A stretch of 51,230 nt of DNA. It comes from an uncultured Candidatus Saccharibacteria bacterium (GTDB taxonomy: Bacteria; Patescibacteriota; Minisyncoccia; Sungbacterales; HO2-52-23). Where the stretch lies: NCBI GenBank assembly GCA_964501445.1, contig CAZCSJ010000003.1:1-51230 (forward strand). The letters run 5' to 3'. The notes beneath the pieces are model-generated. The model saw only the letters and a program-made list of their open reading frames with translations, was not told the origin of the DNA and did no database searches. This document shows, in pieces, positions 6,242 to 42,744 of the stretch; within the stretch, counting starts at the first letter, position 1; every line of letters starts with the position of its first letter. Position numbers and translations under genes: made by a program.

Positions 6242-9200
6242 ATGCCACAACCTTTTGAGGAAGCTGCGCCGGAGCCAAAGAAACAAGAGGAGCCGGAGAT
6301 AGTTGAGACAAAACCAACGGAAGAGGCTACCAAAGAAGCAGCTATCCCTGTGTCCGATGAGCTGCCGAAACAAAAGGAAAGAACGGACACGGAAAAAATT
6401 AAAAATAACATGCGCGAGCGCACTCGGAAGGCGCTTGCTGAGGTTGACGCTACGGCTCCGAATGCCGGAGAAGAGAAAGGGAAAATCCTCAAGGATCATT
6501 ATCGGAAGTATCTGAAACTTGAATCAAAGGAAAGCGGATCCCGATTCGAGGAATCTTTTTGGAATAGCGAGCGGAGCAAGGGCCTCGCGCGATTTTTTGA
6601 TAAAATGGCAGGCTGGGGCGTTGCGCGGCTGTGGATGGATACGAAAGACGGAACCGGAGAAAAACTTCCCGCTGAAGAAGTAAAAAAAAGAATAGATGAC
6701 TGGGCGGCACAGGAGAAAAAGCTTGTCGGAGGAATGGCCCTCGGATGGCGCAAAGTGGCGGCAGCATTGAATTTGCGTACCCTGACCGCATCGGCATTGA
6801 TTGGCGGCGGCGGTGTTGCGCTTGCCACAGGCGGAGGAATGACTGCGCTTGGGGCTCTTACGCTCGGGCGTGTATTTACGGGTACGGGAGCTGCGGTGCA
6901 ATCCGAGAAATTGATGCGGGAAAGGCTCTTTGGAAAAAATGACCTTTGGAAAAAAGATGCGCTGTCCCCGGAGGAACTCGAAAAAATAGAAAAAATGGAG
7001 GACCTTGATGCGCTTGAAAATGAAATTTTACGCACGTATTTTTCAATGAAGATGGCGGGCGTGCCCGTGCCAGTTCACGATGGAGATGTAAAATTTGAAG
7101 GAGAAATTATTCAGGGAAATCCCTATGTCTCTGCGCTTCGACAGCGTGCGGAAAAACTCTACGGCAGAAAAGCAGTTGAAGATCAGCTTAAGGCATTAGA
7201 GGAATGGGAACGGGCTATTGATAAAAAATCCGCAGCAATCGTAAAAAAACAAAAGTTGAAGAATGTTGCGTCAATGATTGGGGGTACTGCTGTCGGAGGT
7301 GTTGTAGGAGCAGGTATTGTGCATGCGATACAAAAAGCAGGTTCATTAGTGGAGGCGGGAGCCGGGCGCCTATTTGGATGGAAAATGCCGTGGCATGCAT
7401 TTACGGAAATTGCAGAGAACAAGGAGCTGATTGCCGCATACCAGGAAAAAATAGGAATGTATCAAGATAAACCCCTTCAGGCTTCTCGGTTGGAAAATGC
7501 TCTGAAGCGTGCATCCCACGCCGTTCCGAGTGATGCGGGACCCGCAGCAGGAAGTACGCAAGTTGCGCCTAAAGCGGGGGCATCCGCGCAATTGAGTCCT
7601 GGCGCGATTACATCGGCCGGAGAGGCACCCGATGTTCAAGCGGGAAATAGATACGCAAGTGAATTACTTGAAAAAGATGGCATCGGAACTCCTGAAAATG
7701 AATTACGTTTGGAAAAAATCACGAACGCAGTCGGGCAGACCGCGGAGGCCTACGAACAGTATGTGAAAGACTATTCGGGAAAACTTTTAGACATTCGTCA
7801 GGAAATGGCGGACGGAAAATTTTCCCAAGAGCGTCTGGACCATCTCCGCAAAATAATGTCGTGGCGCCACGGGCCGGAGGGCGAGACCGCGCTTGCGAAA
7901 GCCGCGCGGGAATTGTACGAGCAGGCACAACAGCAATTTAATATAAAAGAAATACCACTCACGAAAGATAATCATAATTTCCTTAAAGCGATTACCGAAC
8001 AGGTAGGAGGAGACCAAGTAAAAGCGCGGGGACTTATGCGGAGTTATCTCTCTGACCACGGATTTACCGGAGTGTCGGATTCTGACCTCGCAGGGCTCGG
8101 AAATGCGGACGACAAGGTGATAGTATTTACCGACGCAAACGGCGCGCCGCATATTTCTCTCAGTACCGATTCGGGGCATTTCTTAGGGTATCATGAGGGC
8201 GGTACGGAGTTTTTGAAAAACAATCCGCAACTCAACGCGTTTTTTGACGCATTCAAAAATAACACACCGGACAAATTTATTACACTTCTGCAAGATGCAA
8301 AAGACCCGAAGGAGATGCAGAAACTCTTTGAGTCCTATTTTCAGCAGAAGCGGATGGGGCTGATGACGGATAACATAAAAGAGGTGCTTGGGAAATGGAT
8401 TGTTGAATTGCAATCTAAAGACCCAAAGCGCGTAGGACCCGCCAAGATATTTTTTGAAGCGATCTGGCGGCGGCATCATTGGGAATTGGGGCAGGAAGGA
8501 CTTTTGGAGAAAACGATCGCACACGCGAAGAAAGTGGTGAAGGAAGCCGTGGGAACGGGTACTGCGGGACCTGCGGCAGCGGAGCACGTGGCACGGGAGG
8601 TAGGGCGGGCGGCAAAAAGAGCGGTTCCGGGTGCGAGGTATCCGTCAGGAGGCGCAGGTGTTTCGCCCGTTGACACATTGGAGCAGGCCGCCCCGGGGGG
8701 CATACAGATTGAGTCGCAAAAGGGGGCGCTTGACGGGGAGTTCACAAATATCCTTAGAAATGCAAAATACGGAACCCACCAAGGCGCCGTGGACGCATTT
8801 CATAATGCGGTGAAGGCAGTAGAAAGGGTAGCGCCCCATCTGCCACCCAAAAATCAACAAGAGATGCTGGACCAGTTTATACAGCAATGGAACAGCGGAA
8901 ATGAGGGCCACCGTATTACCCCAGAACTCGTTGAGAAATATTATCCGTGGATCGCGCACCCGGATGATTATGTAAAGATAAACGGGAAATGGCAGCCTAT
9001 CACTCGTATTGACGATGCCCTGCCTGGTTCACAAGATGTTCCGCCTCCTCCGGGGCAACAACCCGCGCCGCAGCCATCCGCTCCCGCAACGCCGCCTCCT
9101 GCCGGAGTGCCGCCTGTCCAGAATGTACCTCCGTCACCTGCCCCACCAAGCATGGAGTCAGTTACAGATAATATACCGTCGGGTGGACGACCACCAACGA

Positions 9201-9406
9201 TCGATGATCTACGTAACACACCACAGAGTCAGGAGCGAGTGTTACAGGATTATCAGAGGCATTTCAAAGTAAATCAAGATCAGGTAGAGCGGGTACGTAG
9301 TGATTTGAAGAAGAACATAGATCAAATGCAATCCCAATCTGAAGGAATCCGTAAAAGAGCGAATGAAAAACTTCAAGCGATACTTGATAAGATTTATAAA
9401 AAGTAA
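6242..9406 (+). CDS. Large hypothetical membrane-associated protein (Gly-rich TM segments, Pro-rich tract, C-terminal coiled coil)
   Basis: 1054-aa uninterrupted ORF with an acidic N-terminus. It has two Gly/Ala-rich hydrophobic segments (LIGGGGVALATGGGMTALGALTLG; MIGGTAVGGVVGAGIV). A proline-rich tract is present (PPPPGQQPAPQPSAPATPPPAGVPPVQNVPPSPAPP). Confidence 0.7.
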   Translation: MPQPFEEAAPEPKKQEEPEIVETKPTEEATKEAAIPVSDELPKQKERTDTEKIKNNMRERTRKALAEVDATAPNAGEEKGKILKDHYRKYLKLESKESGSRFEESFWNSERSKGLARFFDKMAGWGVARLWMDTKDGTGEKLPAEEVKKRIDDWAAQEKKLVGGMALGWRKVAAALNLRTLTASALIGGGGVALATGGGMTALGALTLGRVFTGTGAAVQSEKLMRERLFGKNDLWKKDALSPEELEKIEKMEDLDALENEILRTYFSMKMAGVPVPVHDGDVKFEGEIIQGNPYVSALRQRAEKLYGRKAVEDQLKALEEWERAIDKKSAAIVKKQKLKNVASMIGGTAVGGVVGAGIVHAIQKAGSLVEAGAGRLFGWKMPWHAFTEIAENKELIAAYQEKIGMYQDKPLQASRLENALKRASHAVPSDAGPAAGSTQVAPKAGASAQLSPGAITSAGEAPDVQAGNRYASELLEKDGIGTPENELRLEKITNAVGQTAEAYEQYVKDYSGKLLDIRQEMADGKFSQERLDHLRKIMSWRHGPEGETALAKAARELYEQAQQQFNIKEIPLTKDNHNFLKAITEQVGGDQVKARGLMRSYLSDHGFTGVSDSDLAGLGNADDKVIVFTDANGAPHISLSTDSGHFLGYHEGGTEFLKNNPQLNAFFDAFKNNTPDKFITLLQDAKDPKEMQKLFESYFQQKRMGLMTDNIKEVLGKWIVELQSKDPKRVGPAKIFFEAIWRRHHWELGQEGLLEKTIAHAKKVVKEAVGTGTAGPAAAEHVAREVGRAAKRAVPGARYPSGGAGVSPVDTLEQAAPGGIQIESQKGALDGEFTNILRNAKYGTHQGAVDAFHNAVKAVERVAPHLPPKNQQEMLDQFIQQWNSGNEGHRITPELVEKYYPWIAHPDDYVKINGKWQPITRIDDALPGSQDVPPPPGQQPAPQPSAPATPPPAGVPPVQNVPPSPAPPSMESVTDNIPSGGRPPTIDDLRNTPQSQERVLQDYQRHFKVNQDQVERVRSDLKKNIDQMQSQSEGIRKRANEKLQAILDKIYKK

Positions 9407-15325: not shown

Positions 15326-15403
15326 GCGTACGGGTGAGAGGCGGATATACTGATTGATGCGGTATCGTTTTTGGATAGGATTGAAAATTAGGAATGGTAA
15401 CGG

Positions 15404-15769
15404 GGTGGAGGTGGGGAGATTTGAACTCCCGTCCGAATCGCTTCCTCCATGCCATTTCTACAAGCGTATCCCGAATCCGCCAGCTGGCGGACGGGAAAGG
15501 ATGTTTGATAGGCGTCGCGATCCGTATCAAACAGTCAGAATCGCCAAGCTCGATGTATGACACCGGTTATTTCCCATACGAGCGTGAGGAAGCCGATGGT
15601 CCGACGTGACGTCGGACAGAACCGATTTACGCTACTGCAAATGCAGGTCGCGCAGTCGGCATAGAGAATACGTTTGCACGTATGTGATGCGCGGTGTTGA
15701 TAAGGAAGGTGTCGCGCCCCTCCCGCTTGATGGTGTGGATTCTGTAATCCGTCGAGGCCTGTCACCCCC
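15404..15769 (-). ncRNA. ssrA: tmRNA (SsrA)
   Basis: On the minus strand the 5' end reads GGGGGUGACAGGCCUCGACGG and the 3' end reads GGACGGGAGUUCAAAUCUCCCCACCUCCA-CC. This gives a 7-bp acceptor stem with G3:U and a T-arm. The tag ORF is GCA AAC GUA UUC UCU AUG CCG ACU GCG CGA CCU GCA UUU GCA GUA GCG UAA, giving ANVFSMPTARPAFAVA. It is directly downstream of smpB. Confidence 0.85.
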
Positions 15770-18500: not shown

Positions 18501-19499
18501 ATGAAATTGCAATTGAGCCATACGTTCGAAGATATTGTTAAAGTTGAAAATCTCTTGGAGGCATGGAGGGAATTTGTCCGCGGGAAACGGAGCAAGCGCG
18601 ATGTCCAAGAGTTTTCCTTTTCGTTAATGGATAGTATTTTCGCGCTTCACGGTGATCTCCGAAATCATACCTACTCCCACGGGCTGTATCAAGGGTTTTC
18701 AATCCATGACCCGAAGCCGAGGAGTATCCACAAAGCCACGGTACGCGACCGGCTTTTACATCACGCCATCTATCGGGCGCTGTATCCGTTTTTTGACAGG
18801 ACGTTTATCGAAGATTCGTATTCATGTAGGGTCAGGAAAGGAACCCACAAAGCAATGGCGTGTTTCAGGGAGTTTGGCTATCGGGTCAGTAAAAACAATA
18901 CGAAAACCTGCTGGGTGCTCAAATGTGACATCAAAAAGTTTTTTGCAAGTATTGACCAGGCGGTACTCCTCGAAATCCTCGGGCAGTATATTCCGGATAA
19001 AAAGATACTTTTGCTCCTGGATCGGGTGATCGGCAGTTTCGAGAGTACTGCTCCGGGCAAGGGTTTACCGCTTGGTAATCTCACCTCGCAACTTCTCGTG
19101 AATATCTACATGAATGAATTTGACCAGTTTGCGAAGCACACTCTGAAAGCCCGGCAGTATATCCGCTACGCGGATGACTTTGTGATTTTTTCGGAAGATA
19201 AAGAGCGGCTGGAAGAGTTGATACCGAGAATTGAGGAGTTTCTCGGAAGTCATCTGCGCCTCCGTCTTCATCCCGACAAGGTTTTTATCAAAACCTTTGC
19301 CTCGGGAGTGGACTTTCTCGGATGGGTGCATTTTCCGGATCATCGGGTGCTGCGCACCGCCACAAAACGGAGAATGATGAAAAAACTGGAGCAGTCGAAT
19401 TTACCCGAGACCCTTCAATCCTATTTGGGTTTATTGGGCCATGGAAATACCTATAAAATAAGGAAACAAATAGGGCGTGATTTTTCAGTTACTCTATGA
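18501..19499 (+). CDS. DGR reverse transcriptase
   Basis: 332-aa ORF with RT motifs (KPRSIHKATVRDRLLHHA; SYSCRVRKGTHKA), the DGR-typical motif-4 LPLGNLTSQLLVNIYMNEFD and the catalytic box YIRYADDFVIF. Confidence 0.9.
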   Translation: MKLQLSHTFEDIVKVENLLEAWREFVRGKRSKRDVQEFSFSLMDSIFALHGDLRNHTYSHGLYQGFSIHDPKPRSIHKATVRDRLLHHAIYRALYPFFDRTFIEDSYSCRVRKGTHKAMACFREFGYRVSKNNTKTCWVLKCDIKKFFASIDQAVLLEILGQYIPDKKILLLLDRVIGSFESTAPGKGLPLGNLTSQLLVNIYMNEFDQFAKHTLKARQYIRYADDFVIFSEDKERLEELIPRIEEFLGSHLRLRLHPDKVFIKTFASGVDFLGWVHFPDHRVLRTATKRRMMKKLEQSNLPETLQSYLGLLGHGNTYKIRKQIGRDFSVTL

Positions 19500-19511: not shown

Positions 19512-21323
19512 ATGTTTCGCCTAAAATTACGAGAGGCAATCAAGGGGGCAATAAAAGAAAAATTCAGGAATATTGAATCTCCTGATTTTTCGGTGGAGGT
19601 GCCGGAAAACTCCGCGCATGGCGATTATGCCACGAACGTCGCGATGGTGCTGGCAAAGGTATTGAAAAAGCCGCCGATGGCGATCGCGGAGGCGATTGCA
19701 CGGGGATTAGGAAGTCCTTCGACGGGCTCGGGAGATAATGGTAGCCCTTCGACGAGCTCAGGGCATATTACACGGGTGGAGGTTGTGGCGCCCGGGTTTA
19801 TTAATTTTACCGTCAGCGATGAAGCATTACTGCAGGCGCTACAAGACGTAGTGGCACATCCGGAAAAGTGGGGGAAATCGGATGTCGGGAAAAGCAAGAA
19901 GGTTATCGTTGAGTATTTTCAGTTGAATATCGCAAAGCGGCCGCATGTGGGGCATTTGCGTTCTGCAGTAATTGGCGATGCGCTCAAGCGTATGCTTCGC
20001 GCGGAAGGGTACAACGCCATTTCCGACACCCATGTGGGAGATTGGGGCACGCAGTTCGGGATTTTGCTTTTGCAATATAGAGAGGAAGGAGAGCCGGCAA
20101 TAAACGAGCAAGACCCTTTTGATGAACTGGAAAAAATATACCAACGAGGCGCCCAGCGCGCCGAGGCAGATACCGAGTGGCGCGAGAAGGCAAAAGGAGA
20201 ATTTGCAAAACTTGAGAAAGGGGATACAGAAAGGAGAAAGATATGGCAGTGGATGGTGGATGTGTCCATGAAAAAATTGGAAGAAAGCGCGGAGCGCCTC
20301 GGGCTTCTCCCATTTGACGAGCATCGCGGCGAGAGCGCGTATGAAGACGCGATGCCGCCGATTATAGATGAGGCATTACAAAAAGGCGTTGCGAAAAAAA
20401 ATGAGGACGGATCGGTGGTCGTGGATCTCTCGGAGGATGCGCTTGATGAAGCGGTATTGATAAAGTCCGATGGCGCAACGACGTATCTGCTCCGCGATCT
20501 TGCGGCGTTGAAATATCGCACGTCGCATCACGAATTTTTTGAGAATCTCTATGTGGTGGATGTGCGCCAAACCCATCATTTCCGGCAGGTGTTTCGGGTT
20601 GCGGAACTGCTCGGGTGGCGCGGTGTATCGGGAAGTCGTCACATCGCATTCGGATTTATGACGCTTCCTGAAGGCCCCATGAGCACGCGCAAAGGCACGG
20701 CGATTTCGCTTGATGCGGTGTTGGATGAAGCGGAGAGGCGCGCACGCGCAATAATTCAAGAAAAGAATCCGGAACTTGCGAATAGAGAAGAAGTCGCCCA
20801 AATGGTGGGTCTCGGCGCGCTGAAGTACTTTGACCTCTCACACAACAGAAAATCTGATATAGTATTTGATTGGGACCGCGCGCTCGCGTTTGAGGGAAAT
20901 ACAGGGCCTTATCTTCAGTATACGCACGCACGTCTCCGGAGTATTTTAAGAAAAGTAAATCCTTCGACAAGCTCAGGAAATATCTCCGGAGAGAAATCAA
21001 CAAGAGGAAATATCTCCCGAGCGAAGTCGAGGGACAACCTACAAGCGAGCGAATTGGATCCGCTTGAGCACCACATTGCGGCTTCAATCCTCCGTTTTCC
21101 CGAAGCAATTGAAGATACGTTGAAAGAGTACTTTCCGAATGTCCTTGTAAATTATTTATACCACCTCGCGCAGGTAGCAAATGAGTTTTACCACTCCCAT
21201 CCCGTGATGCAGGAGGAAGACGCAAAAAAACGCGCGGTGCGCGTGGCATTGGTGTCGGCCGCGGCAACAACGCTCAAAAATGGTTTAGGACTTCTCGGCA
21301 TTGAGGCGCCGGAGGAAATGTGA
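19512..21323 (+). CDS. argS: Arginine--tRNA ligase
   Basis: 603-aa ORF with an ArgRS N-domain (GDYATNVAM), the HIGH-region variant (AKRPHVGHLRSAVIGD) and a DALR anticodon-binding C-terminus. It contains two repeat-derived insertions. Confidence 0.93.
   Translation: MFRLKLREAIKGAIKEKFRNIESPDFSVEVPENSAHGDYATNVAMVLAKVLKKPPMAIAEAIARGLGSPSTGSGDNGSPSTSSGHITRVEVVAPGFINFTVSDEALLQALQDVVAHPEKWGKSDVGKSKKVIVEYFQLNIAKRPHVGHLRSAVIGDALKRMLRAEGYNAISDTHVGDWGTQFGILLLQYREEGEPAINEQDPFDELEKIYQRGAQRAEADTEWREKAKGEFAKLEKGDTERRKIWQWMVDVSMKKLEESAERLGLLPFDEHRGESAYEDAMPPIIDEALQKGVAKKNEDGSVVVDLSEDALDEAVLIKSDGATTYLLRDLAALKYRTSHHEFFENLYVVDVRQTHHFRQVFRVAELLGWRGVSGSRHIAFGFMTLPEGPMSTRKGTAISLDAVLDEAERRARAIIQEKNPELANREEVAQMVGLGALKYFDLSHNRKSDIVFDWDRALAFEGNTGPYLQYTHARLRSILRKVNPSTSSGNISGEKSTRGNISRAKSRDNLQASELDPLEHHIAASILRFPEAIEDTLKEYFPNVLVNYLYHLAQVANEFYHSHPVMQEEDAKKRAVRVALVSAAATTLKNGLGLLGIEAPEEM
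19716..19763 (+). repeat. Tandem CCTTCGACGRGCTCRGG arms, in frame in argS
   Basis: ccttcgacgggctcggg...cccttcgacgagctcaggg encodes SPSTGSGDNGSPSTSSG, inside the ArgRS N-terminal domain. Confidence 0.7.
20961..21033 (+). repeat. Palindromic CCTTCGACAAGCTCAGG...CGAGCGAAGTCGAGGG element, in frame in argS
   Basis: It encodes PSTSSGNISGEKSTRGNISRAKSRD. It has imperfect inverted arms and an internal direct repeat (ggaaatatctcc, twice). Confidence 0.75.
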
Positions 21324-21416: not shown

Positions 21417-24400
21417 ATGTCTAACGAAAAAACAAAATTTAATCTCCCTCAGGAGGAAGAGAAAATCCTGAAATTCTGGGAAGAACAGAGAGTTTTTGAG
21501 AAAACCCTTGCGCAAAAGAAAGGGCAGAAGACGTTTGTATTTTATGAGGGGCCGCCCACGGCAAACGGCCTTCCCGGGCTTCACCACATGCTCGCGCGGT
21601 CGTTCAAAGACATCATCTGCCGCTACAAAACCATGCGGGGTTTTTATGTCCCGCGCCGCGCGGGTTGGGACACGCACGGGCTTCCGGTGGAAATTGAAGT
21701 GGAGAAACAGCTCGGGTTCAAAACAAAGCAGGATATTGAGCGCTACGGCATCGGGAAGTTCAATCAGAAAGCAAAAGAATCGGTATGGAAGTATAAAAAC
21801 GAGTGGGAGCAATTTACCCGACGGATGGGGTTTTGGATTGATTTACAGAATCCCTATATCACATATGAAACATCATATATAGAAACCCTTTGGTGGATTA
21901 TCAAAGAATTTTGGAAGAAGAAATTGCTCGTCCGCGATTTTAAATCCGTGCCATGGTGTCCGCGCTGTATGACAGGGCTCTCAAGCCACGAAGTGGGGCA
22001 GGGCTACAAGCGCGTGAAAGATGCATCGGTATATGTGAAATTGAAAATTAAGGGAAAAGAGAATGAATATCTTTTGGTGTGGACGACTACTCCATGGACG
22101 CTTCCGGCAAATGTTGCGGTCGTGGTAAATCCCGGAATTGAATACACGAAATTCAAAGTGGGAGACCAGTATCTCTGGTCCAGCCGGCCGATTGCAGGAG
22201 AGTGGGACGCAAAGATCGCGGTCGCGGAGCGGGCATCGGGCAAAACGCTTGTAGGTATTGAGTACGAGCCGCTCTACCGCGTGCCAAGAGAGTATTCTCT
22301 TGGAATTGAGCCGCCCTATCGGGTATTTCCCGCGGATTTCGTGTCCGTGGAGGACGGCACGGGATTTGTGCATATTGCCCCTGCGTTCGGAGAAGATGAT
22401 TTGAATTTGATGAAATCTGTTTATGCACGTCACCCTGAACGCAATGGTCATCCTGAATCCTTCGATGGTCATTCTGATCCGCCAGCTGGCGGAGAAGAAT
22501 CTCAGGATAAACTCCGTGAAGGATCTCGGGATCCTTCGGCCTCGCCTCAGGATGACGATATGCCTCGGGATGATGGACGCCACTTCTTGTATCCCATTCT
22601 CCAAACCGTCAACCCCGACGGCACAATGAAAAGAGGAGTCATCGGCGAAGGGAAGTTCGTCAAGGAGGCGGATAAGGATATTGTCGCAGATTTGAGGAGC
22701 CGCCACCTGCTCTATAAGGAAGAGCAGTATGAACACGAGTATCCGTTTTGCTGGCGGTGTGCGACCCCGCTCCTCTACATGGCGCGCGAGGCGTGGTGGG
22801 TAAAAACGACAAAAGTAAAATCCGCGTTGCTGAAAAACAATGACACCATCAACTGGATCCCGGCGCATGTAGGGCGCGGGAGATTTGGCGAGTTTTTGCG
22901 CGAGAATCGCGACTGGGCGTTTTCCCGCGAGCGGTACTGGGGAACTCCGCTTCCCATTTGGGAGTGCGGGAAGTGTGGAGAACGCGATGTTATCGGATCG
23001 CGCGAGGAACTTGCGGCACGCGCGGCGCATCCCCACAACCGCTACCTCATCATGCGTCACGGCGAGTCGGAAAATAATGTGAAGGGAATTTTAAATTTTT
23101 CCATTGCAAAAAACCATTGGCATTTGACACTTCGCGGGAGAACGCAGGTAGAAAAAGCAGTAAAAGCGCTTCAGAAACAGAGCGTTGATGTGATTCTCAC
23201 TTCTGATTTTCTCCGCGCAAAAGAAACCGCGGATATCATGGGACGCACATTTAAAGTTCCCGTGCGCACTGATGCGCGGCTGCGGGAAGTTGAGGATCGC
23301 GCGTTTGACGGCAAGACCGTGAAAGAGTATGGCGACTGTTTTGTTTTTCACGGCGCACGGTTTCGTTCAGAAATGCTCGGCCTTGAGCCAATGGCGCACC
23401 TCCGCGCGCGCGTGCTTGCCGTAGTTCGCGATTGTGAAAAGAAATATAAAGGAAAGACGATTCTTCTCGTGAGCCATGATTATCCGCTCTGGATGCTTAC
23501 CGCGGGCGCGGAGGGGCTCACGGATGAGGAGACGATTTTGCGCCACAGCGGCAAATGCACAGAACATTTTCTGCCCAATGCCGGAGTGGAGGAGTTGGAG
23601 TATCGCGTGCTCCCGCGCGATGAGACCGGCGCGGTGAATCTCCATAAGCCGTATGTGGATGACGTTACGTTTTCCTGCGAGAAGTGTAAAGGTACGATGC
23701 GCCGCGTGCCGGAAGTGGCGGATGTCTGGTTTGATCCAGGAAGTATGCCGTTTGCCCAGGCACATTTCCCATTCCGGCAAAATCGTCATCCTGAGAGAGC
23801 GAAGCGAACGAAGGATCTTGAGATTCTTCTCCGCCAGTTGTCGGATCAGAATGACAATGGCTATTATTTTCCCGCCGATTACATCTCTGAAGCCGTAGAT
23901 CAAACCCGCGGGTGGTTTTATACGCTCCTTGCCGTTGCGACACTCCTCGGGAAAAAGGCGCCCTATAAAAACGTGATTTCGCTTGGCCATGTGCTGGATA
24001 AAAATGGTCAGAAAATGTCCAAGTCCAAAGGCAATGTCGTGGATCCCAACGAAATGATGGGGAAATACGGCGCAGATGCGCTCCGCTGGTATTTTTACAC
24101 CGTGAACGCCCCGGGAGAGGCGAAACATTTTGACGAAAAAGATGTGGCAGGGAAGCTCCGCGGATTTCTGATGACGCTTTGGAATAGTTTTCTCCTCTTT
24201 GATACTTATGTGAAGAAATCTACAACCTACAACCTACAACCTAAAACCTTGTATATCCTTGACCGCTGGATTCTCACGCGGCTCGATATGCTGGTTGCCG
24301 ATGCAACCAAGAAACTTGATGCGTATGACATCACGGGCGCTGCGCGCGCGATTGAAGAGTTTCTTATTAATGATTTTTCTCAGTGGTATCTGCAGCTTTC

Positions 24401-25112
24401 GCGCCGCCGCCTCCAGCGCCCCCGCTCGCGCGCTGAAAAAGAAGAAGTTACGCGTACCACCGGGGAGGTGCTCTTCACATTGTGTGTGCTTACCGCGCCC
24501 TTTGCGCCATTTTTCGCGGAGGTCATGTACCAGCGTCTTCGCAAAAAAATGGGGCTGAAAGACGCGAGTGTGCATCTCGCGGCGTGGCCAAAACAAGAAT
24601 CAAGAAGCAAGAATCAAGAATTAAAGGTTTTGAAGGATATGGACATGATACGGGCGGCGGTTGCCGAGGGTCTGCGGCTTCGCGCAGAGGCGGGTATTAA
24701 AGTGCGTCAGCCCCTCCGGCGTTTTTCCACCGTACTCCCCAAAACGCATGCGCGCGCGGCAGAACAGATTCTCCGCGAACGGCTCAATGTGAAGGAAGTG
24801 GTGTGTGGCGCAAAAAAATCTGCGTTGGATACAACCATCACGCCGGAGCTCCGTGAAGAAGGAATCGTGCGCGAGGTCATCCGCAACATCCAGGAGATGC
24901 GCCGCGACCTCGGGTTGACACCTCGCACAGAGATCAGGGTGCAAGGAGTGGGGCCTGCCGCGCTCACCGTGCTTTTGATTCGCGAAAAACGGGAGATTCT
25001 AAAAGAGGCAGGCGCGCGCGAGGTGACCGCAGGAGGAAAGAAAGTCTTTGACGCGGAGCGGGAGATTCCCATTGACGGAGAAATTCTTTGGCTTGGCATC
25101 CGGCGCGTGTGA
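21417..25112 (+). CDS. ileS: Isoleucine--tRNA ligase with an embedded histidine-phosphatase-like domain
   Basis: 1231-aa ORF with HIGH region (PPTANGLPGLHHM), CP1 editing domain (WTTTPWTLPAN; GTGFVHIAPAFGEDD), KMSKS (QKMSKSKGN) and Zn-finger CXXC motifs. It also has about 200 extra aa with an RHGE motif and two repeat-derived insertions. Confidence 0.93.
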   Translation: MSNEKTKFNLPQEEEKILKFWEEQRVFEKTLAQKKGQKTFVFYEGPPTANGLPGLHHMLARSFKDIICRYKTMRGFYVPRRAGWDTHGLPVEIEVEKQLGFKTKQDIERYGIGKFNQKAKESVWKYKNEWEQFTRRMGFWIDLQNPYITYETSYIETLWWIIKEFWKKKLLVRDFKSVPWCPRCMTGLSSHEVGQGYKRVKDASVYVKLKIKGKENEYLLVWTTTPWTLPANVAVVVNPGIEYTKFKVGDQYLWSSRPIAGEWDAKIAVAERASGKTLVGIEYEPLYRVPREYSLGIEPPYRVFPADFVSVEDGTGFVHIAPAFGEDDLNLMKSVYARHPERNGHPESFDGHSDPPAGGEESQDKLREGSRDPSASPQDDDMPRDDGRHFLYPILQTVNPDGTMKRGVIGEGKFVKEADKDIVADLRSRHLLYKEEQYEHEYPFCWRCATPLLYMAREAWWVKTTKVKSALLKNNDTINWIPAHVGRGRFGEFLRENRDWAFSRERYWGTPLPIWECGKCGERDVIGSREELAARAAHPHNRYLIMRHGESENNVKGILNFSIAKNHWHLTLRGRTQVEKAVKALQKQSVDVILTSDFLRAKETADIMGRTFKVPVRTDARLREVEDRAFDGKTVKEYGDCFVFHGARFRSEMLGLEPMAHLRARVLAVVRDCEKKYKGKTILLVSHDYPLWMLTAGAEGLTDEETILRHSGKCTEHFLPNAGVEELEYRVLPRDETGAVNLHKPYVDDVTFSCEKCKGTMRRVPEVADVWFDPGSMPFAQAHFPFRQNRHPERAKRTKDLEILLRQLSDQNDNGYYFPADYISEAVDQTRGWFYTLLAVATLLGKKAPYKNVISLGHVLDKNGQKMSKSKGNVVDPNEMMGKYGADALRWYFYTVNAPGEAKHFDEKDVAGKLRGFLMTLWNSFLLFDTYVKKSTTYNLQPKTLYILDRWILTRLDMLVADATKKLDAYDITGAARAIEEFLINDFSQWYLQLSRRRLQRPRSRAEKEEVTRTTGEVLFTLCVLTAPFAPFFAEVMYQRLRKKMGLKDASVHLAAWPKQESRSKNQELKVLKDMDMIRAAVAEGLRLRAEAGIKVRQPLRRFSTVLPKTHARAAEQILRERLNVKEVVCGAKKSALDTTITPELREEGIVREVIRNIQEMRRDLGLTPRTEIRVQGVGPAALTVLLIREKREILKEAGAREVTAGGKKVFDAEREIPIDGEILWLGIRRV
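22429..22579 (+). repeat. Composite nested palindromic insertion (GTCAYCCTGA...TCAGGATGAC family), in frame in ileS
   Basis: There are three left arms (gtcaccctgaac, gtcatcctgaat, gtcattctgatc). The central palindromes are tccgccagctggcgga and gaaggatctcgggatccttc. There are three right arms (ctcaggataa, ctcaggatgac, ctcgggatgatggac). It encodes HPERNGHPESFDGHSDPPAGGEESQDKLREGSRDPSASPQDDDMPRDDG. Confidence 0.8.
23035..23630 (+). other. Histidine phosphatase (phosphoglycerate-mutase-like) domain inserted in IleRS
   Basis: NRYLIMRHGESENNVKG...LTSDFLRAKETA...REVEDRAFDG...ILLVSHDYPL carries the RHG catalytic motif and the downstream SH motif. It is flanked by the IleRS blocks IGSREEL and NLHKPYVDDV. 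Confidence 0.7.
23785..23855 (+). repeat. Palindromic GTCATCCTGAG...TCAGAATGAC element, in frame in ileS
   Basis: gtcatcctgagagagcgaagcgaacgaaggatcttgagattcttctccgccagttgtcggatcagaatgac encodes HPERAKRTKDLEILLRQLSDQND, just before the conserved PADYISEAVDQTRGWFY block. Confidence 0.8.
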
Positions 25113-35162: not shown

Positions 35163-35485
35163 AAAAAGGAGAGGTTTGGCTTGTTGATATTCCCATTGCA
35201 AACGGGCATGAGCAGGGAGGATCGCGCCCCGTTATTGTTATCGCCGATGCACGGGCGAGTGTCGCGATAGTTATTCCTTGCACCTCTAACCTGCAAGCGC
35301 TCCGATTCCCATTTACTCTGCAGGTGAGCCCGTCTCGCGTAAATGGATTCCACACCGCATCCATAGTTCTCGTGCTTCAATTGCGAGCGATTGACAAGAG
35401 ACGCTTGCATAAAAAAGTAGGCATTCTTGAGAAGAAAACGCTCAAAGAGATTGATGGGATGGTTAAAAACCTTCTCGATATTTGA
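35159..35485 (+). CDS. mazF: Type II toxin, MazF/PemK family endoribonuclease
   Basis: 108-aa ORF with MKKGEVWLVDIPIANGHEQGGSRPVIVIA...IPCTSN...AIDKRRL, the typical MazF/PemK pattern. Confidence 0.85.
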   Translation: MKKGEVWLVDIPIANGHEQGGSRPVIVIADARASVAIVIPCTSNLQALRFPFTLQVSPSRVNGFHTASIVLVLQLRAIDKRRLHKKVGILEKKTLKEIDGMVKNLLDI

Positions 35486-38400
35486 TTGTGCGCTATCTCC
35501 CGCAACAATTTGAGAAAAAGTGGCAAAAGAAGTGGCTCAAAGAGAAAATCTATGAGCCCGATTTGGCGCGATCCGCAAGCCGGCGGAAACCTTTCTATAA
35601 CCTCATGATGTTTCCGTATCCGTCTGCGGAGGGGCTTCATGTGGGTAATATGTATGCGTTTACGGGTGCGGACATATATGGGAGATTCAAGCGGATGCAG
35701 GGATATGATGTGTTTGAGCCGATTGGGCTTGATGGGTTTGGGATTCATTCGGAGAATTATGCGATAAAAGTGGGCAAGCACCCTGCGGAGCAGGCGAAAA
35801 TTTCAGAGAAGAATTTCTACCGGCAATTGCAGATGCTTGGTAACGGCTTTGCGTGGAATGAACGGCTCGAAACCTACGACCCTGAATACTATAAGTGGAC
35901 CCAATGGATTTTTATCCAGATGTTCAAGCGCGGGCTCGCGTATCGCAAAAAGGCCGCGGTGAATTGGTGTCCTTCGTGTAAAACCGTGCTCGCGGATGAG
36001 CAAGTCATCCAAAAGAAGCAAGAAGCAAGAATCAAGAATCAAGGCAAAACGGTTAGTGTTTGCGAACGGTGCGAGACAGAGGTGGTAAAAAAAGAATTAG
36101 AGCAATGGTTTCTCAGGATTACGAATTATGCCGACCGCCTGCTTAAGAATCTTGAGAAGATTGACTGGTCAGAGAGAATCAAAATCGCGCAGAGAAATTG
36201 GATTGGAAAGTCGGAGGGAGCGAAAATTGAATTCCCGCTCACCTTGAATAAGGATACCAATTTTCTGATATTGCACGGTTATACCGGTCGCGCAGATAAG
36301 AATTTTATCCCTTGGTTAAAAAGAGAACTTGAATCGCGAGGATTTGAGGTGCACGCACCCCAATTACCGAATACAGATTTACCGAAGGAGTCGGAACAGG
36401 TGGGATATGTCCTCAAAAAATGTCGCATGGATGAGCACACGATTGTGATAGGTCATAGTTTGGGTGGCGCGGTTGCGATGAAGGCATTACAGAAGATTAA
36501 CCGTCCTATTGCGGGGCTCGTTCTTGTCGCTCCTACGGTAGAGCCACGATTCCGTACTGGAGCTGAAAGACCGTTCTGGAAAACCTTCTCTTTGGATTAT
36601 GATTACAAAAAAATTAAAAAACTTAGCGGATTCAGAGCGATCATTTCGGATACCCTCGAAAAGGACAAACGAGGCGCTTACTTGGAGTATTTATCGCAAA
36701 GAATATCAGCGTCTTTGTATGAGACCAAGGCAGGAAGAGTGCATTTTACTAGCAACAAAGAACCTTTTGTATTGGAGCATTTAAGTGCACCAATAACCGT
36801 TTTCACGACCCGACCCGATACGATTTTCGGAGCGACATACCTTGTGTTAAGCCCTGAATATCCGTTCGTGGAAAATCACAAATCACAAATCACAAATCAC
36901 AAAGAGGCAGAAGCGTATATCAAGAAAGCTGAATCAAAAACCGAAGAGGAGCGGATAACGGAAGGACGAGAGAAAACAGGCGTTGAACTCAAAGGTATAA
37001 AAGCGATTAATCCCGCAAATGGTGAGGAAATTTCGATATGGGTTGCGGATTATGTTTTAGGCGGCGTGGGAACGGGCGCAATTATGGCAGTACCCGCGCA
37101 CGACGAGCGGGATTTTGAGTTTGCACAAAAATATAATTTGCCGATTCGGATGGTCGTCTGCCCGCACTATCCAGAACCGACATGTCCAGTACTTGATAAT
37201 GCGTATATAGGCGTGGGGCATCTTGTAGATTCCGGAAAATTCTCCGGCATGGATTCCGAGAGCGCAAAATGGGAAATTACGAAATTCGTGGGTGGCAAGA
37301 AAACTTCGCAGTACCGCCTGCGCGATTGGCTTATTTCGCGTCAACGTTATTGGGGTCCCCCGATCCCCATGATCTATTGCGAGAAATGCGGCTGGCAGCC
37401 GGTGCCGGAAAAGGATTTGCCGGTGAAATTGCCGTATGTGAAAAACTTCCGTCCGACCGGAACCGAGAAATCCCCGCTCGCTACCGTAGAGAAATTTTGG
37501 AAAGTCAGATGCCCGAAATGCGGGTCTGCGGCGCGGAGAGAGACCGATGTATCGGATACATTTTTGGATTCTGCGTGGTACTACCTCGGATATCTCCTCG
37601 GAACGAAAAGCGAAAAGCGCAAAGCGAAAAACTACAACGCAAAACTTAAAACCCTTCCTATTGAGAAATCCATACTGAAGCGATGGCTACCGGTTGATAT
37701 GTATATTGGAGGGGCAGAACATGCAGTTTTGCATTTGCTCTACGTGCGTTTCCTCGCAATGGCGCTTCATGATATTGGAGTTCTGAATTTTCCCGCCCAA
37801 GGCGGGTCTGCCTCGGGCAGAGAGGAGCCGTTCAAGCATTTCCGCGCGCATGGTCTTATCATCAAAGACGGCGCGAAAATGTCAAAATCAAAAGGGAATA
37901 TCGTAAATCCCGATGACTACATTCGCGCCTACGGCGCGGACGCGCTCCGGATGTATCTTATGTTTTTGGGACCGTTTGAGCAGGGGGGCGATTTTCGCGA
38001 TTCGGGAATGAAGGGGATTACGCGGTTTTTGGAGCGCGCGTGGAAGTTTGCGAATCAGGTCATCCTGAGTGCGAAGCCCGAAGGATCTCGAGATTCTTCG
38101 CCTACGGCTCAGAATGACAACTTGAAGAGGTTAATTCATAAAACAATTAAAAAAGTCACGGAAGATATTGAGGGGCTTCAATATAATACCGCGGTTTCGG
38201 CGTTGATGGTTTTACTGAATGAATTTGAAGAGCATCGGGATAGCGTAATGTATGAGGATGTAAAAATATTTCTGAAACTTCTCGCCCCTTTTGCTCCCCA
38301 CCTCACGGAAGAATTATGGCAAAAATTGCAAAAGCAAAAGAAGTTTGCGTCTATTCATACGGAGCCGTGGCCAAAATATAATCTCAAATTATTGAAAGAA

Positions 38401-38586
38401 GATACTTTTGAACTCGTGATACAGATAAACGGCAAAGTCCGCGGACGGGCGACATTAGCCGTCGGCGCATCCGAGGCAGAAGCAAAGAAAGCCGCGCTCG
38501 CACTGCCGCAAGTAAAACAATATATCTCCGGTGAGCCAAAGAAAGTAATCTTTGTCCCCAACAAGCTCATCAATTTTGTGGTGTGA
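35482..38586 (+). CDS. leuS: Leucine--tRNA ligase with an embedded alpha/beta serine-hydrolase-like domain
   Basis: 1034-aa ORF with HIGH-region variant (PYPSAEGLHVGNMY), CP1 editing domain (FTTRPDTIFGATYLVLSPE; AIMAVPAHDERDFEFA) and KMSKS (AKMSKSKGN). It also has a ~180-aa insertion carrying GHSLGG and several repeat-derived insertions. The start codon (TTG 35482 or GTG 35488) is uncertain. Confidence 0.93.
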   Translation: MIVRYLPQQFEKKWQKKWLKEKIYEPDLARSASRRKPFYNLMMFPYPSAEGLHVGNMYAFTGADIYGRFKRMQGYDVFEPIGLDGFGIHSENYAIKVGKHPAEQAKISEKNFYRQLQMLGNGFAWNERLETYDPEYYKWTQWIFIQMFKRGLAYRKKAAVNWCPSCKTVLADEQVIQKKQEARIKNQGKTVSVCERCETEVVKKELEQWFLRITNYADRLLKNLEKIDWSERIKIAQRNWIGKSEGAKIEFPLTLNKDTNFLILHGYTGRADKNFIPWLKRELESRGFEVHAPQLPNTDLPKESEQVGYVLKKCRMDEHTIVIGHSLGGAVAMKALQKINRPIAGLVLVAPTVEPRFRTGAERPFWKTFSLDYDYKKIKKLSGFRAIISDTLEKDKRGAYLEYLSQRISASLYETKAGRVHFTSNKEPFVLEHLSAPITVFTTRPDTIFGATYLVLSPEYPFVENHKSQITNHKEAEAYIKKAESKTEEERITEGREKTGVELKGIKAINPANGEEISIWVADYVLGGVGTGAIMAVPAHDERDFEFAQKYNLPIRMVVCPHYPEPTCPVLDNAYIGVGHLVDSGKFSGMDSESAKWEITKFVGGKKTSQYRLRDWLISRQRYWGPPIPMIYCEKCGWQPVPEKDLPVKLPYVKNFRPTGTEKSPLATVEKFWKVRCPKCGSAARRETDVSDTFLDSAWYYLGYLLGTKSEKRKAKNYNAKLKTLPIEKSILKRWLPVDMYIGGAEHAVLHLLYVRFLAMALHDIGVLNFPAQGGSASGREEPFKHFRAHGLIIKDGAKMSKSKGNIVNPDDYIRAYGADALRMYLMFLGPFEQGGDFRDSGMKGITRFLERAWKFANQVILSAKPEGSRDSSPTAQNDNLKRLIHKTIKKVTEDIEGLQYNTAVSALMVLLNEFEEHRDSVMYEDVKIFLKLLAPFAPHLTEELWQKLQKQKKFASIHTEPWPKYNLKLLKEDTFELVIQINGKVRGRATLAVGASEAEAKKAALALPQVKQYISGEPKKVIFVPNKLINFVV
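36235..36785 (+). other. Alpha/beta serine-hydrolase-like (YdeN/RBBP9-type) domain inserted in LeuRS
   Basis: NFLILHGYTGRADKNFIPWLKRELESRGFEVHAPQLPNTDLP...HTIVIGHSLGGAVAMKAL...GLVLVAP carries the nucleophile elbow G-H-S-L-G-G. It lies between the LeuRS blocks NWIGKSEGAKIEF and VFTTRPDT. Confidence 0.7.
38059..38118 (+). repeat. Palindromic GTCATCCTGAG...CTCAGAATGAC element, in frame in leuS
   Basis: gtcatcctgagtgcgaagcccgaaggatctcgagattcttcgcctacggctcagaatgac is 60 nt (20 codons) and encodes VILSAKPEGSRDSSPTAQND. Confidence 0.8.
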
Positions 38587-41444: not shown

Positions 41445-41550
41445 ATCCCGTTAGAAATCTTGGGAGCCTTCGTATATCATGTTGATCTCGTAGATTATGA
41501 CTATGAAAATACTACATATGGAACATCAGACCTTACATTTCTAACGGGAT
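41445..41550. mobile_element. ~102-bp TIR element (MITE-like), copy 3, abutting a start codon
   Basis: TIRs are ATCCCGTTAGAAAT / ATTTCTAACGGGAT. It is flanked by atga on both sides. The right TIR supplies the AT of ATG 41549. Confidence 0.6.
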
Positions 41551-42640: not shown

Positions 42641-42641
42641 G

Positions 42642-42744
42642 TCCCGTTAGAGATAGCATGTTGAATATCGTAATTAGAAAAAAAAAACCCCAAAAGTTGG
42701 AGAGGTTGTATGTGTTTTATTCATAGTCCAAATCTCTAACGGGA
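42642..42744. mobile_element. ~101-bp TIR element (MITE-like), copy 4, between the sucC-like stop and the sucD-like start
   Basis: TIRs are TCCCGTTAGAGAT / ATCTCTAACGGGA. It is flanked by ATGAGT on both sides. The left ATGA contains the sucC-like TGA stop and the right ATG is the sucD-like start. Confidence 0.6.

What the first reader, a model, noticed from the sequence alone, without database searches (positions are those of the whole stretch)
23035..23630. Isoleucyl-tRNA synthetase carries an in-frame histidine-phosphatase (PGAM-like) domain
Seen in sequence:
- The single 1231-aa ileS ORF contains about 200 aa between IGSREELAARAAHPH and AVNLHKPYVDDV.
- This segment reads like a complete histidine-phosphatase-superfamily domain. 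It has LIMRHGESENN (the RHG catalytic His), LTSDFLRAKETA, and LLVSHDYPL (the second catalytic-type His).
- There are no stops or frameshifts, and the flanking IleRS blocks are intact.

From memory (needs alignment): canonical IleRS has only a short linker at this position.

Inference:
- This is a domain insertion rather than a gene fusion at a terminus.
- A phosphatase/phosphodiesterase-type active site sitting beside the aminoacylation site could act on adenylates, Ap4A-type by-products or the tRNA 3' end.
- This would be an undescribed accessory activity for a class I aaRS.
Basis: partly seen in the sequence, partly recalled or inferred. Interest (0 to 1): 0.7.

Follow-up and report, generated by a model that had tools for sequence, protein, structure and literature searches.

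The report
Histidine phosphatase domain inside isoleucyl-tRNA synthetase
The enzyme that loads isoleucine onto tRNA in this tiny uncultured (CPR/Patescibacteria) bacterium carries a complete, apparently active phosphatase domain spliced into one of its surface loops, an arrangement shared by hundreds of related bacteria but not found described in the papers I could search.

Summary
The 1231-aa ileS ORF (21417-25112, +) contains a branch-1 histidine phosphatase domain (Pfam His_Phos_1, E 1.4e-30). It replaces a 6-15-residue loop at the tip of the zinc-knuckle CP3 subdomain; all IleRS motifs are intact.

It is not an assembly artefact. 113 of the 120 best-scoring IleRS clusters, all from Paceibacteria-type CPR bacteria, have it at the same position. 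At least 50 GTDB species representatives carry it.

The catalytic Arg-His...Arg...Glu/Asp...His set is invariant or conservatively kept. AlphaFold gives pLDDT about 95, and the nearest folds are small phosphomonoesterases (PspA, GpgP, PhoE), not mutases.

Gracilibacteria-type IleRS carry the same domain family at three different loops, up to three copies per protein. It also occurs inside a ValRS and fused to TsaC. One IleRS has a HAD phosphatase in its place.

The likeliest reading is an active, tethered phosphohydrolase coupled to adenylate-forming enzymes. Pyrophosphate is the best substrate guess, but the substrate is unproven.

A rival reading is hitch-hiking in permissive loops: the same loops host GNAT, kinase, endonuclease-like, hydrolase and transposase domains. 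Close syntenic relatives have lost the insert.

No paper describing this was found.

The parts
21417..25112 (+). ileS ORF, 1231 aa, type-2 (eukaryote-like) IleRS with a GLHH variant of the HIGH motif (nt 21576-21587) and KMSKS (nt 24012-24026)
   Evidence: TIGR00392 scores 827 bits against a cut-off of 621. The best PDB matches are 1ILE and Priestia megaterium IleRS2 8C8W.
22965..22976 (+). First CxxC (C517, C520) of the CP3 zinc knuckle, upstream of the insert
   Evidence: C517 and C520 are invariant in 120 sequences. T. thermophilus CP3 carries a zinc-binding motif (PMC7191050).
23028..23609 (+). Inserted histidine phosphatase module, aa 538-731. The Pfam core is aa 544-706 (nt 23046-23534). 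A C-terminal helix and strand (aa 707-731) bring the chain back to the entry point.
   Evidence: His_Phos_1 E 1.4e-30. Boundaries come from comparison with insert-less relatives. AF2 gives pLDDT 94-98 in the full model and 94.4 (pTM 0.91) for the domain alone. Foldseek TM is 0.72-0.77 to 4IJ5/4IJ6, 6S2Q, 4QIH, 9MMH and 1H2E.
23055..23063 (+). RHG motif: R547 and the nucleophile H548
   Evidence: R547 and H548 are kept in 113/113 fused homologues and G549 in 109/113. They are also conserved in every other insertion-site class.
23214..23216 (+). R600, second arginine of the phosphate pocket (S596-D-F-L-R600)
   Evidence: R is kept in 112/113 and S596 in 113/113.
23286..23288 (+). E624, putative proton donor (LRE motif, aligned with PhoE E83)
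   Evidence: E in 89 and D in 24 of 113.
23475..23477 (+). H687, second catalytic histidine (LLVSH)
   Evidence: H is kept in 113/113.
23610..23687 (+). Native CP3 resumes: LPRDETGAVNLHKPYVDDVTFS and the second CxxC (C754, C757)
   Evidence: The same LPxDExGEVNxHRPYVD loop is present in insert-less relatives. H743, P745, D748, C754 and C757 are invariant.
22413..22577 (+). Window-specific disordered extra segment in the editing-domain region (aa 333-387), containing a small palindromic DNA element (22447-22556)
   Evidence: Relatives have a median of 7 aa here. pLDDT is below 50. Terminal inverted repeats GTCATYCTGA...TCAGRATGAC were found.
23784..23861 (+). Second window-specific disordered segment (aa 790-815): the same palindromic element in the opposite orientation (23785-23855). 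It lies in the loop that hosts whole domains in Gracilibacteria-type IleRS ('site b').
   Evidence: Inverted repeat 22465-22508 / 23815-23858, 44 nt, 91% complementary.
24261..25106 (+). Anticodon-binding domain (aa 949-1101) and C-terminal DUF5915 (aa 1136-1230)
   Evidence: Pfam PF08264 E 1.8e-31 and PF19302 E 2.2e-13.

Best explanation
Shown. A complete branch-1 histidine phosphatase domain is nested in frame in the tip loop of the zinc-knuckle CP3 subdomain of a type-2 IleRS. The organism is a Paceibacteria-type CPR bacterium whose nearest named relatives are Sungbacteria. The insertion is old and has descended with the host enzyme. It keeps the full catalytic set: R547, H548 (nucleophile), R600, E624 (proton donor) and H687. 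It is predicted to fold as an autonomous, well-ordered domain on a short two-stranded stalk. IleRS itself has all its motifs.

Inferred. The domain is an active phosphomonoesterase-type hydrolase, not a phosphoglycerate mutase. It works through a phospho-histidine intermediate and is kept at 1:1 stoichiometry next to the enzyme.

Most likely role (inferred, weak). It removes a phosphorylated by-product common to adenylate-forming reactions, with pyrophosphate the leading candidate. This would pull amino-acid activation forward in a cell with minimal metabolism. The reasoning is that the same domain family has been captured repeatedly by enzymes whose shared chemistry is ATP -> acyl-AMP + PPi. 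These are IleRS at three or more loops, ValRS and the t6A enzyme TsaC. In one IleRS an unrelated HAD phosphatase sits in its place. Tethering, rather than exact aiming at the synthetic site, seems to be what matters.
For: Identity and integrity of the domain. Insertion point in CP3.

Independent occurrence: 113 of the 120 best-scoring IleRS clusters carry it, including named Sungbacteria, Nealsonbacteria, Liptonbacteria and Pacebacteria MAGs. 121 of 149 50%-identity representatives are IleRS. About 50 GTDB species representatives have it, including complete 0.83-Mb chromosomes.

Catalytic residues: invariant or conservative in 113 sequences whose insert is only about 41% identical pairwise. 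Insert and body identities correlate (r 0.66).

Structure: the full model has pLDDT 88 and pTM 0.86, with the insert at 94-98. The domain model has pLDDT 94.4. The nearest folds are 200-aa phosphatases, with mutases lower.

Recurrence: Gracilibacteria/Peregrinibacteria-type IleRS carry the family at sites a, b and d, with up to 3 copies. The catalytic set is intact at every site.

Other hosts: ValRS P0514/P0376 has an internal His_Phos, and TsaC-His_Phos is P0377. P0458 has HAD_2 at aa 567-733 where its relatives have His_Phos.
Against: No substrate evidence of any kind; PPi hydrolysis by this subfamily is not established.

The insert has been lost at least two or three times among the closest, fully syntenic relatives. 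No free-standing copy lies nearby in those genomes, so the domain is dispensable there.

The same loops in other CPR IleRS host GNAT, P-loop kinase, DUF559, serine hydrolase and IS200 transposase domains. The window's LeuRS hosts an alpha/beta hydrolase. These loops may therefore simply be permissive landing sites.

The window protein and its nearest relative have R/E at position 628, where 109/113 have G.

I could not see coordinates or PAE, so the distance from H548 to the synthetic site is unknown. I could not check whether these genomes lack a conventional pyrophosphatase.
Confidence: 0.5

Rival explanations
1. Hitch-hiking or moonlighting. The phosphatase is an ordinary small-molecule (metabolic or salvage) phosphatase that landed in a permissive surface loop of an essential, well-expressed gene. 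It works independently of aminoacylation. IleRS is only a carrier that gives it expression.
For: The same loops accept many unrelated domains (GNAT, AAA_33/zeta-like kinase, DUF559, Ser_hydrolase, IS200 Y1 transposase). In this window they even accept a small palindromic DNA element in frame. LeuRS in the window carries an alpha/beta hydrolase. The insert was lost repeatedly in syntenic relatives. Free-standing 190-220-aa relatives exist in Patescibacteria.
Against: His_Phos is by far the commonest passenger. It is kept across two deep CPR classes, was captured at three or more sites and in up to three copies, was also captured by ValRS and TsaC, and is replaced by a HAD phosphatase in one case. 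That pattern is hard to get without selection for phosphatase activity next to these enzymes.
Confidence: 0.25
2. tRNA-end healing. The domain removes a 3'-phosphate, 2',3'-cyclic-derived phosphate or 3'-pyrophosphate from damaged or toxin-modified tRNA bound to the synthetase, restoring a chargeable CCA end. (tRNA pyrophosphorylation by toxSAS enzymes is from my own knowledge.)
For: All hosts are tRNA-pathway enzymes: IleRS, ValRS and TsaC. tRNA is long enough to be reached from sites a, b and d. Some relatives add a PNK-like P-loop kinase (AAA_33) to the same protein, reminiscent of kinase-plus-phosphatase end-healing enzymes.
Against: TsaC does not bind tRNA (own knowledge). No branch-1 histidine phosphatase is known to act on RNA ends. 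No basic RNA-binding surface was evident from conservation. CP3 is not reported to touch tRNA in the papers read.
Confidence: 0.12
3. Built-in regulatory or self-protective protein phosphatase. The domain removes inhibitory phosphorylation from the synthetase itself or a partner. (HipA/HipT-type toxin kinases phosphorylate GltX and TrpS; own knowledge.)
For: Branch 1 includes protein phosphatases (SixA, Sts-1, PGAM5; own knowledge). There is partial SixA similarity (TIGR00249, 34 bits). Co-occurring kinase and GNAT domains in related IleRS suggest post-translational control modules.
Against: The SixA cut-off is not met (34 vs 74.5 bits). The structural neighbours are small-molecule phosphatases. 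No kinase is encoded in or next to the window's ileS.
Confidence: 0.08
4. Artefact or dead domain. The insert is an assembly chimera, an intein-like element removed after translation, or a catalytically dead structural spacer.
For: None beyond the unusual architecture.
Against: More than 100 independent contigs from different studies have the same junctions. GC content is uniform. Pfam finds no Hint/intein domain. No direct repeats flank the insert. The catalytic residues are invariant.
Confidence: 0.02

Closest known systems
Small branch-1 histidine phosphatases: Hydrogenobacter PspA/iPSP (4IJ5), mycobacterial GpgP Rv2419c (4PZ9/4QIH), Geobacillus PhoE (1H2E), HFP (9MMH)
   Same: Same fold (TM 0.72-0.77), same size of catalytic core, and the same Arg-His/Arg/Glu/His catalytic set.
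   Different: Those are free-standing (usually dimeric) enzymes with defined small substrates. Here the domain is nested in another enzyme, and its C-terminal tail is replaced by a return strand. Sequence identity is only 20-25%, and no NCBIfam equivalog cut-off is reached.
CP1 editing domain of class Ia synthetases
   Same: A hydrolytic domain inserted into the connective polypeptide of the Rossmann fold of the same enzyme family. It is the classical precedent for an accessory catalytic site in IleRS, ValRS and LeuRS.
   Different: Unrelated fold and chemistry (aminoacyl-ester hydrolysis versus phosphoryl transfer through phospho-histidine). CP1 is universal and essential for fidelity. The phosphatase is lineage-restricted and has been lost in close relatives.
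NCBIfam NF040702 'isoleucine--tRNA ligase, N-acetyltransferase domain-containing'
   Same: An IleRS carrying an extra enzyme domain, already recognised by annotators. Many Gracilibacteria-type proteins have both GNAT and His_Phos.
   Different: A different passenger domain. The window protein scores 256 bits against a cut-off of 1999, so it is not a member.
Rv2228c-type bifunctional RNase HI / CobC-like acid phosphatase (NF005567)
   Same: A branch-1 histidine phosphatase joined to a nucleic-acid enzyme. The insert matches the phosphatase half (61 bits).
   Different: That is a terminal fusion, not a nested insertion. The cut-off of 326 is not met, and the partner enzyme differs.
LysX of Mycobacterium tuberculosis (LysRS fused to MprF; own knowledge)
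   Same: A synthetase physically joined to an enzyme that handles a product of the synthetase reaction.
   Different: Terminal fusion to a membrane transferase that uses Lys-tRNA. No phosphatase chemistry is involved.

Membership tests
Histidine phosphatase superfamily, branch 1 (Pfam PF00300) | Profile match above the curated gathering score | tested here: met
   106.9 bits against a cut-off of 21.7; E 1.4e-30; profile positions 2-166 of 194.
Histidine phosphatase superfamily, branch 1 (Pfam PF00300) | RHG motif with the nucleophilic His, plus the second Arg and second His forming the phosphate pocket | tested here: met
   R547, H548, R600 and H687 are present. They are kept in 113/113, 113/113, 112/113 and 113/113 homologues.
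Histidine phosphatase superfamily, branch 1 (Pfam PF00300) | Acidic proton donor | tested here: met
   E624 in the LRE motif aligns with PhoE E83. E in 89 and D in 24 of 113.
Histidine phosphatase superfamily, branch 1 (Pfam PF00300) | Alpha/beta fold of the superfamily | tested here: met
   AF2 domain model has pLDDT 94.4. Foldseek probability is 1.00 and TM 0.72-0.77 to solved members.
Histidine phosphatase superfamily, branch 1 (Pfam PF00300) | Phosphoryl transfer through a phospho-histidine intermediate | not testable with these tools
   Needs enzyme assays.
Cofactor-dependent phosphoglycerate mutase (dPGM / 'PGAM') | NCBIfam equivalog score and mutase-type structure | tested here: not met
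   dPGM_arch scores 91 bits against a cut-off of 225, GpmB 50 vs 261 and pgm_1 20 vs 81.7. Mutases rank below the small phosphatases, with TMt about 0.6.
SixA phosphohistidine phosphatase | TIGR00249 equivalog score | tested here: not met
   34 bits against a cut-off of 74.5; only the first 70 residues align.
Isoleucyl-tRNA synthetase (TIGR00392 ileS) | Equivalog score; HIGH-type and KMSKS motifs; editing-domain motifs | tested here: met
   827 bits against a cut-off of 621. GLHH at aa 54-57, KMSKS at 866-870 and WTTTPWTLP at 222-230. Foldseek E is 1e-77 to IleRS2 8C9D and 2e-73 to 1ILE.
Intein / post-translationally excised element | Hint domain and splice-junction residues | tested here: not met
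   No Hint or intein family appears in the Pfam scan. The junctions read ...AAHPH|NRY... and ...YRV|LPRD..., without the usual Cys/Ser...His-Asn|Cys/Ser/Thr pattern.

The most novel reading that the evidence does not exclude
Class Ia synthetases (IleRS, ValRS) and TsaC of CPR bacteria have recruited a dedicated phosphatase as a second accessory catalytic site, alongside editing. It would act on the reaction's own phosphate chemistry or on the tRNA or an inhibitor. Candidate activities are in-cis pyrophosphate removal, repair of 3'-(pyro)phosphorylated tRNA, and destruction of adenylate-mimic antibiotics. The GNAT, kinase and hydrolase inserts in sister proteins would form a modular toolkit built into synthetases.
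Probability: 0.3. Interest if true: 0.85.

Novelty: new variant of a known kind. Interest (0 to 1): 0.68.

Why it matters
Aminoacyl-tRNA synthetases are among the best-studied enzymes, and their accessory domains (editing, tRNA-binding, signalling) are a classic theme. A conserved, catalytically intact phosphatase nested in the catalytic body of IleRS would be a new kind of accessory activity. It recurs at several loops, in several copies, and also in ValRS and TsaC across a very large bacterial radiation. It offers a direct, testable handle on how ultra-small symbiotic bacteria manage the energetics or quality control of translation. It also shows that CP3 and two neighbouring loops tolerate whole-domain insertions, which is useful for synthetase engineering. 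If the domain proves to be a mere passenger, the case still documents an unusual mode of gene packing in CPR genomes: whole enzymes and even palindromic DNA elements inserted in frame into essential genes.

Tried and rejected
**Mis-assembly or chimera.** Rejected: the same junctions occur in more than 100 independent contigs, and GC content is uniform.

**Intein or mobile-element footprint.** No Hint domain was found, and no direct repeats flank nt 23028-23609.

**Glycolytic dPGM or SixA identity.** The NCBIfam cut-offs are not met, and the fold neighbours are phosphatases.

**Rosetta-stone test.** I looked for a free-standing His_Phos gene next to ileS in three insert-less, syntenic relatives. 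None lies within 8-10 kb.

**Pyrophosphatase, PGM or a second His_Phos gene in the window.** None was found among the ORFs scanned.

**Literature.** Eight full-text searches for IleRS or aaRS combined with histidine phosphatase, PGAM, His_Phos_1, GNAT, CPR or Patescibacteria insertions found nothing relevant. The searches for pyrophosphatase in Parcubacteria were uninformative.

**Geometry.** The position of the phosphatase pocket relative to the synthetic and editing sites could not be measured. The structure tool returns no coordinates or PAE, and the papers read do not report CP3-tRNA contacts.

**Caveats on counts and the tree.** The '113 of 120' figure is biased upwards, because fused proteins score higher against a fused query. 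It shows breadth, not prevalence. The neighbour-joining tree has no bootstrap support.
Full report
**1. The observation**

- The window encodes one uninterrupted 1231-aa ORF at 21417-25112 (+).
- The inserted block is aa 541-738, nt 23037-23630. The stated start of 23035 is two bases out of frame, which is why the first translation attempts failed.
- Pfam finds tRNA-synt_1 (E 2e-110), Anticodon_1, DUF5915 and His_Phos_1 in between. His_Phos_1 scores E 4.7e-29 in the whole protein and 1.4e-30 on the insert alone, against a gathering score of 21.7 bits.
- NCBIfam calls the whole protein ileS (827 bits, cut-off 621). It gives the insert only sub-threshold matches: archaeal dPGM 91 vs 225, RNase H/acid phosphatase 61 vs 326, CobC 57 vs 163 and SixA 34 vs 74.5.

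**2. Where the insert sits**

- Against T. thermophilus IleRS (1ILE) the protein aligns in three blocks: 6-332 to 6-332, 388-539 to 333-483, and 742-1083 to 490-817.
- About 200 residues therefore replace the six residues 484-489.
- This loop lies between the two CxxC pairs of a zinc knuckle (C517/C520 and C754/C757 here). In IleRS nomenclature this is the CP3 subdomain, the last part of the connective polypeptide before the second half of the Rossmann fold. In T. thermophilus CP3 carries a zinc-binding motif (PMC7191050).
- Seven very close CPR relatives lack the domain and read ...ELEKRAG-CLPKDEKGEVNFHRPYVD... at this point.
- The window reads ...YRV-LPRDETGAVNLHKPYVD..., so the native loop resumes at L732. 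The foreign piece is about aa 538-731 (nt 23028-23609).

**3. It is real and old**

- GC content is flat across the junctions, and no direct repeats flank the insert.
- A search with the junction region found a dozen partial IleRS from Nealsonbacteria, Nomurabacteria and unnamed metagenomes. All have the same architecture at the same position.
- With the full protein, 113 of the 120 best clusters are 1130-1260-aa IleRS with PF00133 + PF00300. They are 45-71% identical and include Sungbacteria, Nealsonbacteria, Liptonbacteria, Pacebacteria and 'Parcubacteria group' MAGs. This ranking favours fused proteins, so it shows breadth, not frequency.
- In a library of 50%-identity representatives, 46 proteins match at E <= 1e-30 and 554 at E <= 1e-10. 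Of the best 149, 121 are IleRS.
- A pattern scan of GTDB species representatives returned about 50 Patescibacteria genomes with full-length matches. They include Jorgensen-, Niyogi-, Wolfe-, Yonath-, Kaiser- and Nomurabacteria, Paceibacterota, and two complete 0.83-Mb chromosomes.
- Pairwise identity is 41% in the insert and 58% in the IleRS body, and the two are correlated (r 0.66). This fits descent together.

**4. It looks catalytically competent and is a phosphatase type**

| Residue | Conservation in 113 fused homologues |
|---|---|
| R547 | 113/113 |
| H548 | 113/113 |
| G549 | 109/113 |
| T571 | 112/113 |
| G574 | 113/113 |
| S596 | 113/113 |
| R600 | 112/113 |
| E624 | E 89, D 24 |
| E657 | 113/113 |
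| R665 | 113/113 |
| H687 | 113/113 |

- The window has R at position 628, where 109/113 have G. This is a local peculiarity shared in kind with its nearest relative.
- AlphaFold2 on aa 1-1135 with a 120-sequence alignment gives mean pLDDT 88 and pTM 0.86. The insert scores 94-98.
- The domain alone gives pLDDT 94.4 and pTM 0.91.
- Its best structural matches are roughly 200-residue phosphomonoesterases: the novel-type phosphoserine phosphatase 4IJ5/4IJ6, mycobacterial hydrolase 6S2Q, GpgP 4QIH/4PZ9, HFP 9MMH and PhoE 1H2E (TM 0.72-0.77). The dPGM mutases come later, with target-normalised TM near 0.6.
- The chain's first strand and a C-terminal strand (aa 724-727) are predicted side by side, so the domain sits on a short two-stranded stalk.

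**5. The wider pattern, which changes the interpretation**

A second IleRS lineage (PPFATGxPHYGH type; Gracilibacteria, Peregrinibacteria, Peribacteria) nearly always carries the same domain family, at three different places.

| Site | Position | Approximate count in the set examined |
|---|---|---|
| a | The same CP3 loop as in the window | 39+ |
| b | Between WF(D/E)SG and FPADFIAEGxDQTRGWF | about 17 |
| d | 76-79 residues after KMSKS, at the entry to the anticodon-binding domain | about 55 |

- Some proteins have two copies and one has three.
- Within-site identity (0.38-0.44) exceeds between-site identity (0.31-0.34). Each site class is therefore its own lineage.
- The Arg-His/Arg/Glu/His set is kept in all of them and in the free-standing Patescibacteria relatives.
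- The family also occurs inside a ValRS. P0514 is 1140 aa with His_Phos at 577-752, between the catalytic and anticodon domains. This is the equivalent of site b.
- It is fused to the C-terminus of TsaC, the threonylcarbamoyl-AMP synthase (P0377; TIGR00057 146.8 bits against a cut-off of 123.2).
- One IleRS (P0458) has no His_Phos but carries a HAD_2 phosphatase at site b.

IleRS, ValRS and TsaC share one chemistry: ATP plus a carboxylate gives an acyl-adenylate plus PPi. This recurrent, multi-site, multi-copy capture, together with the non-homologous replacement, is my main argument. Phosphatase activity next to these enzymes appears to be selected, and proximity rather than exact geometry appears to be what counts.

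**6. Evidence pointing the other way**

- The same loops in Gracilibacteria-type IleRS also hold GNAT acetyltransferases, AAA_33/zeta-like P-loop kinases, DUF559 endonuclease-like domains, a serine hydrolase and even an IS200-type Y1 transposase.
- The window's own LeuRS has an alpha/beta hydrolase with a GHSLG nucleophile elbow inserted at aa 261-370.
- The window's IleRS has two lineage-specific disordered segments (aa 333-387 and 790-815; pLDDT below 50). Both are copies of one small palindromic DNA element in opposite orientations, and the second lies exactly in site b.
- These loops are therefore generally permissive.
- In a neighbour-joining tree of 891 body columns, the seven insert-less IleRS fall inside the fused clade at three places. 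P0150 is sister to the window and its nearest relative (no bootstrap).
- The insert-less genomes are syntenic with the window (PolX, NUDIX, SmpB, argS, ileS, recO, a DUF11-type protein, a class II aaRS, an M16 peptidase, AI-2E, metG, TatD). None has a free-standing His_Phos within 8-10 kb.
- The domain can therefore be lost cleanly.

**7. Mechanism**

- *Shown:* a nested, intact histidine phosphatase fold with a full catalytic set, in an intact IleRS.
- *Inferred:* it is an active phosphohydrolase working through phospho-His548, with E624 as the general acid.
- *Best guess for its role (about one chance in four on its own):* hydrolysis of PPi or another phosphorylated by-product at the source, pulling adenylate formation forward.
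- *Rivals:* an unrelated metabolic phosphatase riding in a permissive loop; tRNA 3'-end (pyro)phosphate removal; and self-dephosphorylation.
- I could not measure where the pocket points, because no coordinates or PAE were available. The papers read report no CP3-tRNA contact.

**8. Comparison with what is known**

- The domain meets every sequence and fold criterion of Pfam His_Phos_1. It fails the dPGM and SixA equivalog tests.
- The host meets the ileS equivalog test. It is a type-2 IleRS whose HIGH motif reads GLHH, like Priestia IleRS2 (GVHH) in the alignment.
- Conceptually the nearest precedents are the CP1 editing domain (a hydrolase nested in the connective polypeptide), the NCBIfam 'ileS with GNAT' family, the RNase H/acid-phosphatase fusion Rv2228c, and LysX.
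- Eight full-text searches found no description of a synthetase-phosphatase architecture.
- Automated annotation has noticed it. JGI names one relative 'isoleucyl-tRNA synthetase/phosphohistidine phosphatase SixA/...GNAT'.

**9. Verdict**

This is a new variant of a known kind: a synthetase with an accessory domain. It is widespread in CPR bacteria, functionally uncharacterised and readily testable.

Noticed in passing
window 35482-38586 (+), insert at about aa 261-370 (nt ~36262-36591): The LeuRS gene of the same window also carries an in-frame enzyme insert. It is an alpha/beta (Ser_hydrolase/YdeN-like) hydrolase with a GHSLG nucleophile elbow at aa 324-328. It lies between the N-terminal Rossmann half and the editing domain.
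   Followed up: partly
window 22447-22556, 23785-23855 (both in ileS), 38059-38118 (in leuS); core palindrome also at 15475-15491 and 49585-49601: A small palindromic element with terminal inverted repeats GTCATYCTGA...TCAGRATGAC is inserted in frame in two synthetase genes, twice in ileS in opposite orientations. None is expected by chance. It encodes disordered, low-complexity loops (pLDDT below 50). It is reminiscent of Rickettsia palindromic elements or MITEs.
   Followed up: partly
proteins P0314, P0318, P0330, P0360, P0398-P0508 (not in the window): IleRS of Gracilibacteria, Peregrinibacteria and Peribacteria reach 1200-1860 aa. They hold up to three His_Phos domains plus GNAT, AAA_33/zeta-toxin-like kinase, DUF559, Ser_hydrolase, HAD or IS200 Y1 transposase domains, inserted at three recurrent loops.
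   Followed up: partly
proteins P0377 and P0514/P0376 (not in the window): The same His_Phos subfamily is fused to TsaC (threonylcarbamoyl-AMP synthase). It is also nested inside a ValRS at the loop equivalent to IleRS site b.
   Followed up: partly
window 18501-19499 (+): A 332-aa reverse transcriptase (RVT_1, E 6e-25) is encoded immediately upstream of argS. The insert-less syntenic relatives have only small unannotated ORFs of 93-267 aa between smpB and argS. I did not determine whether it belongs to a retron, a group II intron or a diversity-generating element.
   Followed up: no
window 19512-21323 (+): ArgRS is 603 aa, against 532-548 aa in syntenic relatives. It contains low-complexity Ser/Gly/Thr-rich segments (GSPSTGSGDNGSPSTSSGH; NPSTSSGNISGEKSTRGNISRAKSRDN) with a 24-nt tandem repeat at 20975-21028.
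   Followed up: no
window 41549-44458 (+): Three adjacent genes resemble a split ATP-citrate lyase / citryl-CoA system: ATP-grasp_2 + Citrate_bind, then CoA_binding + CoA-ligase, then the citrate synthase C-terminal domain. This is unusual for a CPR genome.
   Followed up: no
window 15403-15769 (-): A tmRNA gene (Rfam 98 bits; tag peptide ANVFSMPTARPAFAVA) contains the 16-nt palindrome TCCGCCAGCTGGCGGA, which also forms the core of the ileS element.
   Followed up: no
window 3314-4576, 4598-5809, 6242-9406 (+): Three large ORFs (420, 403 and 1054 aa) have no Pfam match at E <= 1e-5.
   Followed up: no
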